This document shows, piece by piece, positions 59,568-64,000 of a stretch of DNA of 64,000 bases. Under the pieces are notes generated by a model. The model did not search any database and was not told where the DNA came from. It saw nothing but the letters and a program-made list of their open reading frames with translations. The DNA lies in NCBI GenBank assembly GCA_041661605.1, contig JBAZUE010000001.1, forward strand, positions 414,928 to 478,927, in the 5' to 3' direction. The translations under genes were made by a program, and so were the position numbers. This stretch comes from Candidatus Omnitrophota bacterium. Lineage in GTDB: Bacteria > Omnitrophota > Gorgyraeia > Gygaellales > Profunditerraquicolaceae. Positions within the stretch are counted from its first letter, which is position 1. Every line of letters begins with the position of its first letter.

Positions 59568-60326
59568 CTACGGGCAGAGCTTGGTTGAAAAACCTTCCCG
59601 GGAAAGTCTGCTCTCTGTATCCAACGCCTCTGTTTGTGTTTTAAATCTGCCGACTTTAACCCGGTAACCTTCGCTTGAGCCATCTACATAAGCAGGATAC
59701 CCCATAGCCGCCAGTTTATCTTTAAAATTAACGGCATTCAAATTCTTCACAAAAAACCCCACTTGTACCGAGAATCCACCGGTTTCATTCACAACAGGAA
59801 CGCTTGCCGGTATGCCCTTAGAAGGCCTTAATTCCAGGCTTAAAGGAAAATCCCTTTTTAACTTCATCAGATATTCATTAAACTGCCGATTATTACCTTT
59901 CCTATAATTTGATTGGCTTAAACGATACAATATTGCCGCCTTCAAGTTTATATTGGGGTAATCCTCAAGCAGTTTGTTATAAATATCTTCCGCCTCCTGA
60001 AATTGCCCTTTAATTAAATAAGTATCCGCTGAAGCCATGGCTGCCTGCTCTTTAAATTTACTAAAGGGACTGTTTAAAATCTTCCGGAAACATTCCTGCG
60101 CCTGGTCCAGCTTATTCTCTTTTAAATAGCTCAAACCTAATAAATAGACCAGCTCATCCGTACCCTGGATATTGAAACAATCTGCCTGAGTCTGCGCCTC
60201 AAGTATTACCCTGCGGTAATTTCCCTGCAGGAAATCAGCTTTTAAATTATCCAAATTAGCCGCCCAAGAGATAACCGGAAAAAGAAAAACAGCCAAAATT
60301 AAAAAATACAGCTTAAGCTTTTGCAT
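59568..60326 (-). CDS. Secreted TPR-repeat protein with a C-terminal SPOR (peptidoglycan-binding) domain
   Basis: A signal peptide, TPR-like repeats, and C-terminal FSVQVGFFVKNLNAVNFKDKLAAMGYPAYVDGSSEGYRVKVGRFKTQTEA (SPOR pattern). Confidence 0.8.
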   Translation of the reverse strand: MQKLKLYFLILAVFLFPVISWAANLDNLKADFLQGNYRRVILEAQTQADCFNIQGTDELVYLLGLSYLKENKLDQAQECFRKILNSPFSKFKEQAAMASADTYLIKGQFQEAEDIYNKLLEDYPNINLKAAILYRLSQSNYRKGNNRQFNEYLMKLKRDFPLSLELRPSKGIPASVPVVNETGGFSVQVGFFVKNLNAVNFKDKLAAMGYPAYVDGSSEGYRVKVGRFKTQTEALDTESRLSREGFSTKLCP

Positions 60327-61461
60327 ATTTGTGTTTGGCCCTCAGTTTATTTGAAATCCTTCTCTGTAAATCAAGAATCTTCTTATGCCGCTTCTCTTTC
60401 TCCTCTTTAGTCAATAGATCAGCAAATTTTGCCGCTGCCGTATAAGGCCTGGGGGAATATTTAAAAATGTAGGCAGCGTTAAATCCTATTTTCTCAATTA
60501 AATCACAAGTCTCTTTAAATTCTTTATCAGTTTCAGTAGGAAATCCCACAATAATATCTGTAGTCAAAAGACCACCTTTAACAATTCTACGATAAGAATC
60601 AATTAAAGCCAAGTATTCTTTTACCGAATACCCCCGGTTCATAAGTTTAAGGATCCTGTCTGTTCCTGACTGTAACGGTAAATGCAATGATTTGTTCAAT
60701 TTATCTAAATCACTGACAGCCTGGAAAAGATCAATATTGGCATCTTTAGGATGAGAGGTAAAAAAATCAAACTTTTTTAAACCCTCTAACGCATTAACCT
60801 GCGTTAGCAGTTTTGTAAAATTAACCCCATCCTCCAGATACGAATTGACATTTTGACCCAAAAGAGTAATTTTAGTAATTCCTCCGGCGATAGCCTCCTG
60901 AATTTCCGTAAGTATGTTTTTATTCTTCCGGTGACGCAGGGGCCCGCGGACATACGGCACTACACAATAAGAACAAAAATTAGAACACCCTTCGGATATA
61001 ACCACATACGCATGATCTTTATCCTGGAAAAAACCTGTGTGGTAAATTTCCTCCGGACGCTGAGAACTATCCACCTCCCAAATTTTACGCTCAAGAAGTC
61101 CTGCCGAAGAAAGTTTATCCAATATTTCCGGTATTTTATAGATATCCTGCGGGCCGGCGACAAAGCTGACATTGCCGTCACGCTGGAAGGCGCGTTCTTT
61201 GTAATTCTGGGCCATACATCCGACTAAACCGATTATTTTAGAACCCTTATAACTCCCAATCAAGCTCCAAACCCGGTCCTCGGCATGCTGGCGCACAGAG
61301 CAAGTATTAAATATAATAATATCTGCTTCTTTGTCAGAAGCGCAAATTTTGTAACCCGCGTTTTTCAGCAGTCCACAGATCAGCTCGGAGTCACGCACAT
61401 TCATTTGGCAACCGAAGGTGCGCACAAAAACCTTCTTTTGTGTATCGCTTTTATTTGTCAT
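60313..61461 (-). CDS. miaB: MiaB-family radical-SAM methylthiotransferase lacking a recognisable C-terminal TRAM domain
   Basis: UPF0004 domain VFVRTFGCQMNVRDSE and radical-SAM motif EGCSNFCSYCVVPYVRG. The ORF ends at 382 aa (…RISNKLRAKHKYAKA), just after the radical-SAM core. Confidence 0.85.
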   Translation of the reverse strand: MTNKSDTQKKVFVRTFGCQMNVRDSELICGLLKNAGYKICASDKEADIIIFNTCSVRQHAEDRVWSLIGSYKGSKIIGLVGCMAQNYKERAFQRDGNVSFVAGPQDIYKIPEILDKLSSAGLLERKIWEVDSSQRPEEIYHTGFFQDKDHAYVVISEGCSNFCSYCVVPYVRGPLRHRKNKNILTEIQEAIAGGITKITLLGQNVNSYLEDGVNFTKLLTQVNALEGLKKFDFFTSHPKDANIDLFQAVSDLDKLNKSLHLPLQSGTDRILKLMNRGYSVKEYLALIDSYRRIVKGGLLTTDIIVGFPTETDKEFKETCDLIEKIGFNAAYIFKYSPRPYTAAAKFADLLTKEEKEKRHKKILDLQRRISNKLRAKHKYAKA

Positions 61462-61553
61462 TGGTTATGGAATATTTTTAGTCGTATATGGTCATGGAAA
61501 TTTGCCTTAAAAGTCATGCTCATTCATCGGCTCTAAATTACGGAATTATGGGT

Positions 61554-61589
61554 ACATGTAAGAAATTAATTAGGTGCGTGCCTCCGGAA
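61554..61589. repeat. Copy A of a 36-bp intergenic repeat
   Basis: ACATGTAAGAAATTAATTAGGTGCGTGCCTCCGGAA, starting 2 nt after the stop of the TIR-like gene. It is 31/36 identical to copy B at 62404-62439. Confidence 0.85.
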
Positions 61590-61590
61590 C

Positions 61591-62361
61591 TCATAGGACT
61601 TTGTCATCCTTCAGCGCACGTTTAATATGAAACTCCCAGGTAGGATGCAAAGAAAGCTCATCACCAGAGTTAAGATTATGAATACGCTCTACCAAGTTGA
61701 CGACGCCTAACTGGGCTATTGCTGTCCTTACTGCTTGATGAACCTTGTTATCATCCCATGAAAACTTTGACTTAACGCTTCTCTTCAATGTAAACTCCTT
61801 CACCCGTAAACCGCCTTCCTCCACAAGGACTCCGAGCATCTGTTTGGTCTCTACTGAAAGCGAATCCCATTTTTGTCGAAACTTCTGATCAGAAGCAACT
61901 GAGAGGAAATGTGTACTGTTTAACCAATTATTAACTTGTTGAACCAATCCTATTTCATCCAATAATGGCTGCGGATTTACTATTGCCCCTTTTGCCACTC
62001 CCTCCATCTTATTAACACTTTTGTCGGCAAAAGTGATTATTGGGATATCAACGCCTTCAAAATGTTTTCGATAAGCCAAAATCGCAAATTCTTGATTAAC
62101 CCAAAGAGAAGAATAATGTCGACGTGATTTACCGGAAGAATCAATGATTTCCCCGCGGTCATGGAATAAGAGCACTGCACCTGAACAACATCTCAATGCC
62201 TCGAATATATGCGTGTTAGCAGGAGTAAGATTTTGTTCTCCTTCCGCAAAGAAGCCCTCAAAACCCGCAGTGTTATCAATAGTATTCTTGATTGCCTGAC
62301 CAATACGTATTTCATCGGGAGTATTCTGTCCACAACTCACAAAAATTAAAGTTTTTTCCAT
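61591..62361 (-). CDS. TIR-like domain protein with an uncharacterised (possibly winged-helix-like) C-terminal domain
   Basis: The N-terminal ~150 aa follow the TIR/TIR_2 layout: LIFVSCGQNTPDE (betaA), GFFAE, CCSGAVLLFH, then SSLWVNQEFAIL, where W-x3-E parallels the catalytic-Glu helix of TIR NADases (SARM1 WVHKE). AAGGAA SD-like sequence 5 nt before the ATG. The assignment rests on motif recognition only. Confidence 0.6.
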   Translation of the reverse strand: MEKTLIFVSCGQNTPDEIRIGQAIKNTIDNTAGFEGFFAEGEQNLTPANTHIFEALRCCSGAVLLFHDRGEIIDSSGKSRRHYSSLWVNQEFAILAYRKHFEGVDIPIITFADKSVNKMEGVAKGAIVNPQPLLDEIGLVQQVNNWLNSTHFLSVASDQKFRQKWDSLSVETKQMLGVLVEEGGLRVKEFTLKRSVKSKFSWDDNKVHQAVRTAIAQLGVVNLVERIHNLNSGDELSLHPTWEFHIKRALKDDKVL

Positions 62362-62403
62362 TTTTATTCCTTATTTCATCTGCCACGTGGCCAAATCCCG
62401 ATG

Positions 62404-62439
62404 ACATGTACGAAATTAATTATGTACGTGTCCCCGGAA
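62404..62439. repeat. Copy B of the 36-bp intergenic repeat
   Basis: ACATGTACGAAATTAATTATGTACGTGTCCCCGGAA, 43 nt upstream of the TIR-like gene start. It contains an internal imperfect palindrome ACATGTAC/GTACGTGT around an AT-rich core. Confidence 0.85.
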
Positions 62440-62502
62440 TTATTACGCTAAGGGAAAGAACGACTCCCTGAATAATCTACTTGTGAATGCCTAAAAGACT
62501 AT

Positions 62503-62640
62503 TTATTGTTCCTTTTTCTCCAAAACTTTTAAGATATCACTGAGTAACCGATTCAACGTATGTGTATTAGTTGTATTGCGCTCTAAGTTGATAGCGATAT
62601 ATATTAGCAATCCTATAACAATAATAAAAAATATAGCCAT
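62503..62640 (-). CDS. Unannotated 45-aa single-pass membrane peptide
   Basis: Reverse-complement translation: MAIFFIIVIGLLIYIAINLERNTTNTHTLNRLLSDILKVLEKKEQ*. AGGAGGG lies 7 nt upstream of the ATG, which is 25 nt after the DUF2971 gene stop. It falls below the ORF-track length cutoff. Confidence 0.5.
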   Translation of the reverse strand: MAIFFIIVIGLLIYIAINLERNTTNTHTLNRLLSDILKVLEKKEQ

Positions 62641-62665
62641 TTATTTACCCTCCTTTAATGATTAA

Positions 62666-63505
62666 CTATAACGCGCTATCAGAAGATTCGATATTTATCT
62701 TATATGCAATGTCGTCTAATTGAGCCCTTTTGATTGAAATTGGATTGTTATTCCTGTTCCTTAAAATTCTTTTTAGTATATTTTCATTTTCTTGCTTCAT
62801 TTTGGCACCTAAGATAACCCCAACAAGACACTCTCCGGGAAACCCGTAAGCCGTCCCTGGCTGGCGGTTTGGACCTATTATTCTGTACTCTGATTCGTAT
62901 TTCCAATCAGAACTTTTTGTTAAGAAAGCATCATTAATTGCATCTTTTTTCCGTTTAAAAAGATTTACTTTTGGGCGGTTAGGTTTATAAAAAACCTGCA
63001 ATGCTTCTCCGAAAAACGGTGTATTGGGTGTCCTTGCAAATTCGAAACATACTCCTGTATGAAAACTAGCATAATGGGCCCACATCAATAAGCTGTCTGG
63101 CTTTTCAGAAAAGCAACAAATTCCTAGTTCTTCGTTGATGGCTTTTTGCATTTTTGATTTTTCGCTCTCAACAAGTTTATCTGAAGTTATTCTGTTTTCC
63201 AGCCAATTATTTTTGACTTCTTCTAAATCTTTTACTGCATAGTTACCACTTTTAGACAATTGAGCATGCCAATATTGGAAATCCTTAGGTGGCGCATCGT
63301 AAATAGGACAACAATCAAAAGGATCGTTAAAATCAGCTAAGCGTGAAAAATAGAGCTCGTTCTTCTCTACTACATTTCTCACGCGCAATAGGTCATCTTG
63401 GTTATTTTCTTTTAATGGAAAATATTTATATAAAATGGTACCTCTCGGCTTTAACCAGTTTTTAATAAATTCTTTCATAATTTCTATCACCCAACTCATT
63501 CTCAT
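62666..63505 (-). CDS. DUF2971-like protein
   Basis: LYKYFPL...LYFSRLADFNDPFD and LLMWAHYASFHTGVCFEF match the two signature blocks I associate with DUF2971. The start is ambiguous (ATGs at 63505, 63499 and 63478; none has a strong SD). Confidence 0.7.
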   Translation of the reverse strand: MRMSWVIEIMKEFIKNWLKPRGTILYKYFPLKENNQDDLLRVRNVVEKNELYFSRLADFNDPFDCCPIYDAPPKDFQYWHAQLSKSGNYAVKDLEEVKNNWLENRITSDKLVESEKSKMQKAINEELGICCFSEKPDSLLMWAHYASFHTGVCFEFARTPNTPFFGEALQVFYKPNRPKVNLFKRKKDAINDAFLTKSSDWKYESEYRIIGPNRQPGTAYGFPGECLVGVILGAKMKQENENILKRILRNRNNNPISIKRAQLDDIAYKINIESSDSAL

Positions 63506-63599
63506 ATATCATATTAAGAAATTCCAAGATAGTCGTACAATACTGCACCCAACGGTCAGCCCAGAGTCCGTATAAAATTTTTTTCATATCTTTATTCAT
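63462..63599 (-). CDS. Possible 45-aa ORF bridging the methyltransferase and DUF2971 genes (speculative)
   Basis: The ATG at 63599 overlaps the TGA of the upstream gene (ATGA). It translates to MNKDMKKILYGLWADRWVQYCTTILEFLNMIYENELGDRNYERIY* and overlaps the longest DUF2971 ORF. No independent support. Confidence 0.2.
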   Translation of the reverse strand: MNKDMKKILYGLWADRWVQYCTTILEFLNMIYENELGDRNYERIY

Positions 63600-64000
63600 T
63601 TTTCCGCAACAACAAGCATTTCAAAGTCATCTGTAGTCAGCTTATCGTTTCTCGAGTATGCCCCAAGCTTCGCGCCAAAGATGTCGATCTTTTTGAACCC
63701 GAGCGTCTTTAAAAGCCACATTATCTCGCTGGGCACGTAATAACGCTCGTTGCACTTAAGCTCCCTTTTATTGCCGGAATCGTCCTCAAAAACAGCAGTG
63801 TTATGATCACGGAAAGTCATCAGATCAAAGGAGCACTCCTTACACTGGGACTGGCCTTCTTTCTGCGCCGACTTATAGAAGTCATTGACAGAATGAAACA
63901 GCGGGAACAATCCGTTTAATGTGGTGAAAATGAGCTTGCCTTTATCCTTCAGCGCTTTTGTTGCGTTCTTGAGGATTTCAAAATTCATCTCATCTGTTTC
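63596..64000 (-). CDS. Class I SAM-dependent methyltransferase, C-terminal part (partial: the 5' end lies beyond the right edge)
   Basis: The frame stays open upstream of the listed Met to the window edge (…ETDEMNFEILKNATKALKDKGKLIFTTLN). This is the typical post-motif-III region of Methyltransf_11/25-type enzymes, followed by a substrate-lid-like region. Confidence 0.65.
   Translation of the reverse strand, partial: ETDEMNFEILKNATKALKDKGKLIFTTLNGLFPLFHSVNDFYKSAQKEGQSQCKECSFDLMTFRDHNTAVFEDDSGNKRELKCNERYYVPSEIMWLLKTLGFKKIDIFGAKLGAYSRNDKLTTDDFEMLVVAEK

What the first reader, a model, noticed from the sequence alone, without database searches (positions are those of the whole stretch)
61541..62443. 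Two 36-bp imperfect direct repeats (31/36 identical, 850 bp apart) bracket exactly one gene, with an exact 9-mer CGGAATTAT at both outer ends
Copy A (61554-61589, ACATGTAAGAAATTAATTAGGTGCGTGCCTCCGGAA) lies 2 nt after the stop of the TIR-like gene. Copy B (62404-62439, ACATGTACGAAATTAATTATGTACGTGTCCCCGGAA) lies 43 nt before its start.

CGGAATTAT occurs at 61541-61549, just outside copy A. It occurs again at 62435-62443, formed by the end of copy B.

This is the geometry expected for a single-gene cassette inserted by site-specific recombination (attL/attR-like). The alternative is one operator reused in front of both miaB and the TIR-like gene. Each copy has an internal imperfect palindrome around a TAATTAATT core. 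That palindrome pairs better as plus-strand RNA (G-U pairs) than as minus-strand RNA (C-A mismatches).
Basis: seen in the sequence. Interest (0 to 1): 0.6.

Follow-up and report, generated by a model that had tools for sequence, protein, structure and literature searches.

The report
Palindromic boundary repeats around defence gene
Two copies of a rare ~50-bp palindromic DNA element flank a TIR-like defence-type gene inside a small foreign gene islet next to miaB in an uncultured Omnitrophota bacterium; they look like joints where gene modules were recombined, but this is not proven.

Summary
The two 36-mers are 31/36 identical and 850 bp apart. The 9-mer CGGAATTAT occurs only at the two stated places in 64 kb.

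Each 36-mer is the core of a ~50-bp imperfect palindrome, which I call P. Copy B is intact. Copy A is decayed and truncated on its left.

P is not a genome-wide repeat. It is also not a canonical dif site, an attC site, a terminator or an Rfam RNA.

Both copies lie in a ~2.1-kb accessory islet between a methyltransferase gene and miaB. The islet holds a DUF2971/PDC-S31 gene, a 45-aa ORF and a TIR-like/winged-helix gene. One close relative lacks the whole islet. Other relatives carry different cargo at this spot, one of them a serine-recombinase element.

The closest relative has the same gene at the same place. It keeps only half of copy A, has no copy B, and has a different upstream gene. Another contig carries two P copies 73 bp apart with no gene between them.

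The simple attL/attR single-gene reading is therefore only partly supported. My best reading (about 0.4) is that P marks recombination joints of shuffled defence-gene modules. An operator reading and a transposon-end reading remain open.

The parts
61554..61589 (.). Copy A of the 36-mer (P_A): decayed palindrome that lacks the family's left flank
   Evidence: self-complementarity 16/28; no significant fold on either strand
62404..62439 (.). Copy B of the 36-mer (P_B): core of the intact element
   Evidence: 31/36 identical to copy A; 39/52 identical to the L017 copy when anchored on the centre
62394..62441 (.). Full 48-bp imperfect palindrome of copy B, with 27-nt arms 78% complementary around the centre AATT|AATT
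   Evidence: I1; folds at -16.2 / -17.4 kcal/mol on the two strands, z about -4
61541..61549 (+). Left CGGAATTAT 9-mer, just outside copy A
   Evidence: resembles the centre motif of P (L017 centre TACGGAATTAATTAGGTAC versus window TACGGAATTAT-GGGTAC)
62435..62443 (+). Right CGGAATTAT 9-mer, overlapping the end of copy B
   Evidence: its first 5 nt (CGGAA) belong to the repeat shared with copy A and, as CCAGAA, with L017h
61591..62361 (-). 256-aa gene with a TIR/flavodoxin-like N-terminal domain and a winged-helix C-terminal domain
   Evidence: no Pfam or PADLOC hit; AF2 pLDDT 80; Foldseek hits to SfSTING TIR, SPARTA TIR-APAZ and nucleoside deoxyribosyltransferases
62362..62381 (-). 5' leader of the TIR-like gene, conserved with L002 and L004; homology with both relatives stops at 62381
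   Evidence: sequences
62382..62391 (.). Perfect 10-bp palindrome GCCACGTGGC between copy B and the conserved leader
   Evidence: read from the sequence
62503..62640 (-). 45-aa ORF with a hydrophobic N-terminus, called as a gene on the identical Logan contig
   Evidence: (L001 985-1122)
62666..63505 (-). DUF2971 / PADLOC PDC-S31 gene (candidate single-gene antiphage protein)
   Evidence: Pfam PF11185 E 9.6e-9; PDC-S31 E 7.5e-51; the DUF2971 'Aristaios' antiphage system in PMC11381338
63459..63561 (-). Remnant of a small membrane ORF plus spacer; the same segment precedes three different genes in the window, L004 and L002
   Evidence: 86% identity to L004 25-83 and to L002 2686-2781
63596..64000 (-). 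3' part of a SAM-methyltransferase gene; forms the right border of the islet
   Evidence: 86% nt identity to L099 3630-4032, where this gene directly precedes miaB
61487..63595 (.). Accessory islet of about 2.1 kb, absent from relative L099; the left limit is approximate
   Evidence: GC content 0.31-0.39 versus 0.42-0.45 in the rest of the window
60313..61461 (-). miaB (radical-SAM methylthiotransferase); forms the left border of the islet
   Evidence: Pfam UPF0004 + Radical_SAM; its 5' boundary is a synteny break-point across relatives

Best explanation
The two 36-mers are two copies of a ~50-bp imperfect-palindromic DNA element, P. Its form is AATCCC-N3-5 / arm GACAYGTAC / invariant AT-rich centre GRAATTAATTAK / arm GTACGTGTC / CYCCRGAA. 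P is confined to a narrow Omnitrophota lineage.

The copies sit at the joints between gene modules of a ~2.1-kb defence-type islet. The islet lies between a methyltransferase gene and miaB, a spot where relatives carry other cargo.

I propose that P acts at the DNA level as a recombination joint. It has a lox/dif-style layout: two inverted recombinase-binding arms around an identical central crossover region. Modules were inserted or exchanged at it, leaving a direct pair (B upstream, A downstream) around the TIR-like module.

The original module probably also carried the 287-aa gene that L004 still has. That gene was later deleted in the window and in L002. Copy A has since decayed, so the module is now fixed.

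Shown: the anatomy, the rarity, the direct orientation, the islet and the hotspot.
Inferred: the recombination function, the ancestral two-gene module and the recombinase acting in trans.
For: 1. P is a discrete, copy-pasted unit. Copy B matches a site on an unrelated contig, L017, over 39/52 nt including non-palindromic flanks, while the surrounding DNA is unrelated. All pairs of copies match better in direct than in inverted orientation.
2. The centre GAAATTAATTA is identical in A and B (11/11). All 5 mismatches fall outside it. Identical spacers are what Xer-type recombination between pdif sites requires (PMC13141974).
3. Accessory context. The islet is absent in L099, where the methyltransferase gene abuts miaB. 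Other relatives at the same boundary carry a 6-kb serine-recombinase element that overlaps miaB's 5' end (L098), a helicase (L100/L101), a CLC channel (L102) or Fic+HTH genes (L018).
4. Breakpoints of homology sit next to P. Window-to-L004/L002 homology upstream of the gene ends at 62381, 22 nt from copy B. In L002 it ends immediately beside a P-like half, GGACACGGTCCTAATTCTCG.
5. P-like sequence lies on both sides of the TIR-like gene in a second genomic context, L002. This evidence is weak: p about 0.04 and 0.1.
6. L004 retains the right half of copy A at the orthologous position.
7. Both P-bearing loci neighbour DUF2971 genes that are only distantly related to each other, so P is not tied to one gene.
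8. P is not a dispersed repeat. No other copy is found in the window or in the roughly 1.4 Mb of fetched loci searched.
Against: - No recombinase or transposase was seen. The sample was the 12 kb of called genes around the site and ten size-matched ORFs elsewhere in the window.
- No empty site with a single P was found, and no excision junction.
- L004 carries the gene without intact P on either side.
- L017 has two direct copies with nothing between them.
- Copy A is too decayed to be a working site.
- The centre AATTAATT is itself symmetric, so it gives no direction to a crossover.
- The P-like calls in L002 and upstream of the 287-aa gene in L004 are statistically marginal (p 0.03-0.1) and are not found by profile search.
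- Only three to four secure copies exist in total.
Confidence: 0.4

Rival explanations
1. P is an operator. A dimeric DNA-binding protein, possibly the winged-helix C-terminal domain of the TIR-like protein, binds the strong site B upstream of its own gene and a weak auxiliary site A. It regulates the defence gene and perhaps read-through into miaB.
For: - Copy B lies 44-79 nt upstream of the start codon and is a well-kept palindrome with 9-10-bp arms about two helical turns apart.
- The adjacent protein has a predicted winged-helix domain.
- L017 shows one good and one weak copy 73 bp apart upstream of a DUF2971 gene, like a primary plus auxiliary operator.
Against: - The close homologues in L004 (81% identity) and L002 (76%) lack an intact P upstream, while keeping the 20-nt leader.
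- Similarity between copies extends into flanks and spacer at non-orthologous loci, which suggests copied DNA rather than a selected motif.
- In L017 the neighbour is a DUF2971 gene, and no TIR-like gene is present on the 4.4-kb contig.
- No sigma-70-like promoter overlaps either copy.
- The more distant family members show no shared upstream palindrome.
Confidence: 0.25
2. The segment 61550-62434 (885 bp) is a non-autonomous transposable cassette. On this view the two P copies are its ends. CGGAATTAT is either a 9-bp target-site duplication (as in MIC/MITE-like elements) or the target/right-end motif of an IS200/IS605-type element with hairpin ends. A transposase encoded elsewhere mobilised it.
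For: - The exact 9-mer abuts the outer edges GGGTACA... and ...TGTCCC at nearly symmetric distances from the two centres (18 and 17 nt). Chance is about 0.004.
- Because P is a palindrome, the ends also read as inverted repeats (19/28 to 32/52).
- The gene has no recombinase of its own and occurs at another locus in L002.
- L017's gene-less pair resembles a miniature derivative.
Against: - Asymmetric positions in the arms and spacer agree in direct orientation, not inverted: 24/28 versus 19/28.
- The right-hand 9-mer is partly a conserved part of the element, so it is not locus-specific.
- No matching duplication flanks the L017 or L002 copies.
- Copy A does not form a hairpin.
- No empty site was found.
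- L004 shares the insertion but without the ends.
Confidence: 0.15
3. P has no function of its own. It is cryptically simple palindromic DNA, made of alternating purine-pyrimidine tracts and AATT repeats. It duplicated locally by slippage or was carried along during illegitimate recombination, and it is now decaying.
For: - P is built from short self-complementary words (ACATGT, GTAC, ACGT, AATT, CCGG).
- Centre-like motifs CGRAATTA recur every 20-24 nt: 61541, 61561, 61585, and 62411, 62435.
- Copy A and L017h are decayed.
- L004 lost 20 nt between the short repeats GGAATTAT and GAAATTAAT.
- A eukaryote-like contig matched the strict pattern by chance.
Against: Copy B and L017-P stay near-perfect palindromes at unrelated loci in different populations: 39/52 identity, with perfect 10-bp arms in L017. 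That is unexpected for neutral DNA at this divergence.
Confidence: 0.12
4. P is an RNA-level hairpin, acting as a transcription terminator or stabiliser at the 3' ends of the genes upstream of it.
For: - Each copy follows a gene. Copy A lies 1 nt after the TIR-like stop codon. Copy B lies 64 nt after the 45-aa ORF.
- L002 and L004 also have palindromes after the TIR-like stop.
- Copy B folds well on the sense strand at -17.4 kcal/mol.
Against: - Copy A does not fold better than shuffles on either strand (z +0.05 and +1.55).
- There is no U-tract, and no terminator-like call at either copy.
- No Rfam family matches.
Confidence: 0.05

Closest known systems
dif modules (pdif/XerCD-bounded gene modules of Acinetobacter plasmids) and Xer-exploiting integrative elements (IMEX)
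   Same: One or a few accessory genes are bounded by short imperfect-palindromic sites with two arms around an AT-rich spacer. No recombinase lies inside the module. Recombining sites have identical spacers (PMC13141974). IMEX leave one good and one degenerate site in direct orientation (from my own knowledge).
   Different: - P does not match dif: with a PWM built from three dif seeds, copies B and A rank 141 and 2971 of 127,946 windows.
- P's arm-spacer geometry is not a clean 11-6-11.
- dif modules are flanked by inversely oriented sites, whereas these copies are direct.
- The locus is not at a GC-skew switch.
Integron gene cassettes and their attC sites
   Same: A promoter-less single gene is followed by an imperfect palindrome at its 3' end. 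Cassettes are co-oriented. The cargo is of unknown or defence-type function.
   Different: - P's palindrome is about 48 bp, shorter than attC sites (57-141 bp).
- P contains no RYYYAAC or GTTRRRY core: no GTT or AAC occurs in either copy.
- No intI or attI was seen in the 12 kb of called genes around the site.
- Only two sites are present.
Mobile insertion cassettes / MITEs (IS-derived non-autonomous elements, some with passenger genes)
   Same: Repeats at both ends, a short exact duplication outside them, a passenger gene and no transposase.
   Different: - The sequence asymmetries of the two ends agree in direct, not inverted, orientation.
- The apparent duplication overlaps conserved element sequence.
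- No parent IS is known.
lox/FRT-type tyrosine-recombinase core sites
   Same: The layout reads as 13-8-13: arms ATGACATGTACGA / ATGTACGTGTCCC around AATTAATT, about 34 bp. That is close to the 36-bp repeat unit.
   Different: The spacer AATTAATT is symmetric, whereas lox and FRT spacers are asymmetric. No cognate recombinase has been identified. The resemblance is in architecture only.
REP/BIME elements
   Same: Intergenic imperfect palindromes of similar size placed after genes. The L013/L014 homologue of the gene is flanked by true REP-like repeats (GTAGCCCGGGTGAGCG...).
   Different: P has two copies in 64 kb, both inside the islet, and none in the roughly 1.4 Mb of fetched loci. It lacks the GTAG head.

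Membership tests
XerCD dif / pdif site | 28-bp site matching the dif consensus (XerC arm, 6-bp spacer, XerD arm) | tested here: not met
   A PWM from the E. coli, B. subtilis and F. alni dif seeds (PMC3025954) gives a best score of 2.5 bits at copy B (rank 141 of 127,946) and -6.2 bits at copy A (rank 2971).
XerCD dif / pdif site | More than four complementary pairs between positions 7-12 and 17-22 | tested here: not met
   In the symmetric register of copy B, ACGAAA pairs with TTATGT at 4 of 6 positions. This was read from the sequence against the criterion quoted.
dif module | Module bounded by inversely oriented sites | tested here: not met
   The copies match better in direct (24/28) than in inverted (19/28) orientation.
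dif module | Identical spacer in the two recombining sites | tested here: met
   The central run GAAATTAATTA is identical in A and B.
Chromosomal dif | Located at the GC-skew switch (replication terminus) | tested here: not met
   GC skew is negative in all 16 bins of the window and on both sides of the repeats.
Integron cassette / attC | attC site of 57-141 bp with R'' RYYYAAC and R' GTTRRRY | tested here: not met
   Neither copy nor its flanks contains GTT or AAC cores, and the palindrome is 48 bp.
Integron cassette / attC | Integron integrase and attI next to the array | tested here: inconclusive
   No integrase appears among the called genes of the 12-kb identical contig. The window ends 1.5 kb beyond copy B.
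REP/BIME | Many dispersed intergenic copies per genome | tested here: not met
   Profile searches find no further copy in the 64-kb window or in the fetched loci (about 1.4 Mb). The whole genome was not available.
MITE / mobile insertion cassette | Terminal inverted repeats | tested here: inconclusive
   The palindromic ends read both ways, but the asymmetric positions favour direct orientation.
MITE / mobile insertion cassette | Target-site duplication confirmed by an empty site | tested here: inconclusive
   The exact 9-mer sits at both outer edges (p about 0.004). No empty site with one copy was found, because L099 lacks the whole islet. The right 9-mer overlaps conserved element sequence.
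IS200/IS605-type element or PATE | Subterminal hairpins in the same orientation at both ends | tested here: inconclusive
   Copy B folds (z about -4) but copy A does not (z 0.05 and 1.55).
IS200/IS605-type element or PATE | Cognate Y1 transposase (TnpA) in the genome | not testable with these tools
   The complete source genome could not be fetched. None was seen among the ORFs checked.
Intrinsic terminator | GC-rich stem followed by a U-tract | tested here: not met
   No terminator-like call falls at either copy.
Any Rfam RNA family | Covariance-model match | tested here: not met
   No match at E <= 1 in 61300-64000.
TIR-domain protein (the gene between the repeats) | Sequence match to TIR families, or a TIR-like fold | tested here: inconclusive
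   There is no Pfam or PADLOC hit. The AF2 model (pLDDT 80) matches TIR domains of SfSTING and SPARTA, and also nucleoside deoxyribosyltransferases and flavodoxins, at E 4e-5 to 5e-3 with TM about 0.35.

The most novel reading that the evidence does not exclude
P-bounded modules could be a previously undescribed cassette-shuffling system of Omnitrophota. In it, single defence genes (TIR-like/winged-helix, DUF2971 and others) would be moved between hotspots by a host-encoded recombinase. The recombinase would act on a ~34-50-bp lox-like palindrome that is neither dif nor attC. Functionally this would be analogous to dif modules or integron cassettes.
Probability: 0.15. Interest if true: 0.65.

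Novelty: new variant of a known kind. Interest (0 to 1): 0.35.

Why it matters
If P really is a recombination joint, it would be a third kind of short-site gene-cassette system beside integrons and dif modules. It would sit in a poorly studied, uncultured phylum and would traffic anti-phage-type genes.

It would also give a sequence tag for finding defence modules in Omnitrophota metagenomes.

If P is only an operator or a decaying remnant, the locus is an ordinary small defence islet at a variable spot upstream of miaB.

Tried and rejected
1. Chromosomal dif. Rejected: there is no GC-skew switch and P scores poorly against a dif PWM.
2. Integron attC. Rejected: no core motifs are present. The flanking repeats around the distant homologue in L013/L014 looked like a cassette array but are REP-like (GTAG heads, found in many intergenic gaps).
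3. Generic REP or MITE. No further copies appear in the window or in the fetched loci. The strict pattern gave only 2 hits in 241 M metagenome contigs, one of them eukaryote-like chance, and 0 in viral contigs. A looser half-site pattern also gave 0 viral hits. A plasmid BLAST gave only chance 19-mers.
4. RNA element. No Rfam hit and no terminator call. Copy A does not fold.
5. Insertion inside the first codons of miaB. I first read ATGAAAAAAATT near the methyltransferase stop as the displaced miaB start. I dropped this because the window's MiaB N-terminus is the native type shared with L100 and other relatives. Only L098's serine-recombinase element rewrites the N-terminus.
6. P-like halves in L002 and upstream of the 287-aa gene in L004. 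These are suggestive by eye and by local alignment (p 0.03-0.1), but independent profiles do not recover them. I use them only as weak support.
7. Recombinase in the window. Ten ORFs of Xer-like size are all housekeeping genes.
8. The source genome is not a GTDB representative and was not in the JGI contig scan, so a genome-wide copy count could not be made.
Full report
**1. Observation**

- Copy A (61554-61589) and copy B (62404-62439) are 31/36 identical and 850 bp apart.
- A degenerate 36-mer allowing three mismatches hits only these two places in the window. None of 100 shuffles gave two hits.
- CGGAATTAT occurs exactly twice in 64 kb, at 61541 and 62435. Shuffled flanks share a 9-mer in 823 of 200,000 trials, p about 0.004.
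- The ORF between the copies is 61591-62361 on the minus strand, 256 aa.

Corrections are minor. One nucleotide, not two, separates copy A from the stop codon, and 42 nt, not 43, separate copy B from the start codon.

The RNA remark does not hold. Copy B folds equally well on both strands (-16.2 and -17.4 kcal/mol, z about -4). Copy A folds no better than shuffles on either strand.

**2. Anatomy of the repeat**

Copy B is the core of a 48-bp imperfect palindrome, 62394-62441, centred on AATT|AATT. Its self-complementarity is 22/28 in the core. Copy A scores only 16/28.

The five A/B mismatches all lie outside an identical central run, GAAATTAATTA.

The copies agree better in direct orientation (24/28) than in inverted orientation (19/28). 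This is true of every pair of family members I found.

The arms are alternating purine-pyrimidine tracts. Centre-like motifs CGRAATTA recur every 20-24 nt: 61541, 61561 and 61585, then 62411 and 62435. Part of the 9-mer coincidence therefore reflects the element's internal periodicity.

**3. What P is not**

- No Rfam family matches.
- No promoter-like or terminator-like call falls on either copy.
- It is not a canonical dif site. A PWM from three published dif seeds (PMC3025954) ranks the best position in copy B 141st and in copy A 2971st of 127,946 windows. GC skew is negative in every bin of the window, so there is no terminus here.
- It contains no attC core motifs.
- It is not dispersed. 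Profile searches find no other copy in the window or in the fetched loci, about 1.4 Mb in all.
- A strict pattern found only two contigs among 241 million metagenome records and none in viral contigs. A looser half-site pattern also found nothing in viral contigs.

**4. The second locus, L017**

One of the two metagenome hits is eukaryote-like chance.

The other, L017, carries a near-perfect copy: AATCCCACGGACACGTACGGAATTAATTAGGTACGTGTCCC. It is 39/52 identical to copy B, including the non-palindromic left flank AATCCC. A second, decayed copy lies 73 bp away in the same orientation, with no gene between the two.

The pair sits between a radical-SAM gene and a DUF2971 gene. That DUF2971 gene is only distantly related to the window's DUF2971 gene.

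L017 comes from the same metagenome as L101, whose MiaB is 90% identical to the window's.

**5. Context: an islet at a hotspot**

The source is a Candidatus Omnitrophota MAG.

Relative L099 (MiaB 90% identical) has the methyltransferase gene directly followed by miaB. Window 64000-63598 and 61435-61300 align to it at 86-87%. The roughly 2.1 kb in between is absent from L099.

That islet holds, in order on the minus strand:
- a small-ORF remnant;
- a DUF2971 / PDC-S31 gene, a family with one tested antiphage member, Aristaios (PMC11381338);
- a 45-aa ORF;
- copy B;
- the TIR-like gene;
- copy A;
- a leader shared only with L004.

Other relatives have different neighbours at the same miaB boundary:
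- L098 has a 6-kb element with primase, relaxase-like, MerR-like and large serine recombinase genes. It overlaps miaB and supplies a new MiaB N-terminus.
- L100 and L101 have a 911-aa helicase.
- L102 has a CLC channel.
- L018 has Fic plus HTH genes.

The islet's GC content is also lower than the rest of the window.

**6. The closest relative of the islet, L004**

L004 carries an 81%-identical TIR-like gene directly upstream of the same miaB leader.

The junction downstream of the gene aligns with the right half of copy A, which is 27/52 identical overall, mostly in that half. About 20 nt, including the left arm, are missing between the short repeats GGAATTAT and GAAATTAAT. A profile built without L004 scores this site only at E = 32 database-wide. 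That is meaningful only because the site is at the orthologous position.

Upstream, L004 has a 287-aa gene with no Pfam match. Its stop codon lies inside the conserved leader of the TIR-like gene. Copy B, the 45-aa ORF and the DUF2971 gene are all absent.

**7. A third context, L002/L003**

A 76%-identical TIR-like gene sits upstream of an FRG-domain gene. L002 comes from the same assembly as L100, so a population with no islet at miaB probably carries the gene elsewhere. This is an inference from co-occurrence.

Homology to the window and L004 stops 20 nt upstream of the start codon. L002 keeps the last eight codons of the 287-aa gene. Immediately beyond them lies GGACACGGTCCTAATTCTCG, which resembles an arm plus half-centre of P. 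A similar stretch, ACGGTCCTTAATTC, follows the gene.

These similarities are marginal (p about 0.04 and 0.1). Independent profiles do not recover them.

**8. The gene**

It has no Pfam or PADLOC match.

An AF2 model built from 11 homologues (pLDDT 80) shows an α/β N-terminal domain and a winged-helix C-terminal domain.

Foldseek finds TIR domains of SfSTING and SPARTA, the retron Ec86 effector, nucleoside deoxyribosyltransferases and flavodoxins. E-values run from 4e-5 to 5e-3, with TM about 0.35.

Close full-length relatives are few: 11 clusters in the word-indexed search. A profile search finds 863 representatives, most sharing only the N-terminal domain in other architectures. None of ten sampled had a confident Pfam domain match.

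**9. Interpretation**

The data fit P as a discrete piece of DNA that has been copied between non-orthologous loci independently of any one gene. It sits at or next to the breakpoints between shuffled accessory modules.

I take this as favouring a DNA-level recombination joint (confidence about 0.4). The layout is two inverted arms around an identical AT-rich centre. The direct pair B/A would be left by insertion of a module that originally held the 287-aa gene plus the TIR-like gene.

The weaknesses are real:
- no recombinase nearby;
- no empty site with a single P;
- L004 without intact sites;
- a gene-less pair in L017;
- very few copies in total.

An operator for a winged-helix protein (about 0.25), transposon-type ends with a 9-bp duplication (about 0.15), functionless decaying simple DNA (about 0.12) and an RNA hairpin (about 0.05) remain open.

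**10. Verdict**

The feature resembles dif modules, integron cassettes and IS-derived cassettes in logic. It fails the tested membership criteria of each, so I rate it a new variant of a known kind, of modest interest (0.35).

Noticed in passing
window 60313-61461 (miaB 5' boundary); L098 4334-6004, L099 3273-4065, L100 3148-6001, L102 1-915, L018 130-1342: The 5' boundary of miaB is a synteny break-point in this Omnitrophota clade. Six different upstream neighbours were seen in relatives with 76-92% MiaB identity.
   Followed up: yes
L098 519-6004: A roughly 6-kb integrated element carries Toprim primase, Replic_Relax, MerR-like and large serine recombinase genes. Its recombinase ORF overlaps miaB, and it supplies a new MiaB N-terminus (MAETSENRAETGEKGKKKLRILLRTFGCQMN). 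Its other end was not reached.
   Followed up: partly
window 63459-63561; L004 25-83; L002 2686-2781: A 59-96-nt segment, made of the 3' end of a ~37-aa membrane ORF plus a spacer, precedes three unrelated genes: DUF2971, the 287-aa gene and a DUF5677-like 219-aa gene. It looks like a conserved leader in front of a variable gene slot.
   Followed up: partly
window 61591-62361: The N-terminal TIR/NDT-like domain of this protein has no Pfam model. A profile search finds it in 863 representative proteins in many architectures. Close full-length relatives with the winged-helix tail are few (11 clusters).
   Followed up: partly
window 62382-62391: A perfect 10-bp palindrome, GCCACGTGGC, lies exactly at the point where homology with L002 and L004 ends, between copy B and the TIR-like leader.
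   Followed up: no
L002 835-904: A hairpin with a 22-bp stem (95% complementary) spans the stop codon of the TIR-like homologue. L004 has a different 26-bp palindrome at the same place, so some palindrome follows this gene in every close relative.
   Followed up: partly
L013 211-296, 1220-1261, 2682-2723, 3006-3091, 6108-6184 (also L014, L015): REP-like repeats (GTAGCCCGGGTGAGCG...) fill the intergenic gaps around a 43%-identical homologue. They mimic a cassette array but are generic repeats.
   Followed up: yes
L017 560-640: A tandem repeat, ATTACAA(A)TTACAAGACGCTTTA, lies between the P copy and the start of the DUF2971 gene.
   Followed up: no
L005 4023-4610 and L012 6785-7369: In two distant homologue loci, a gene of about 195 aa with no Pfam match follows the TIR-like gene within 3-17 nt. 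It may be a conserved partner that is absent from the window.
   Followed up: no
window 62400-63000: GC content drops to 0.31-0.34 here, against 0.42-0.45 for the rest of the window. This fits a foreign origin for the DUF2971 / 45-aa part of the islet.
   Followed up: partly
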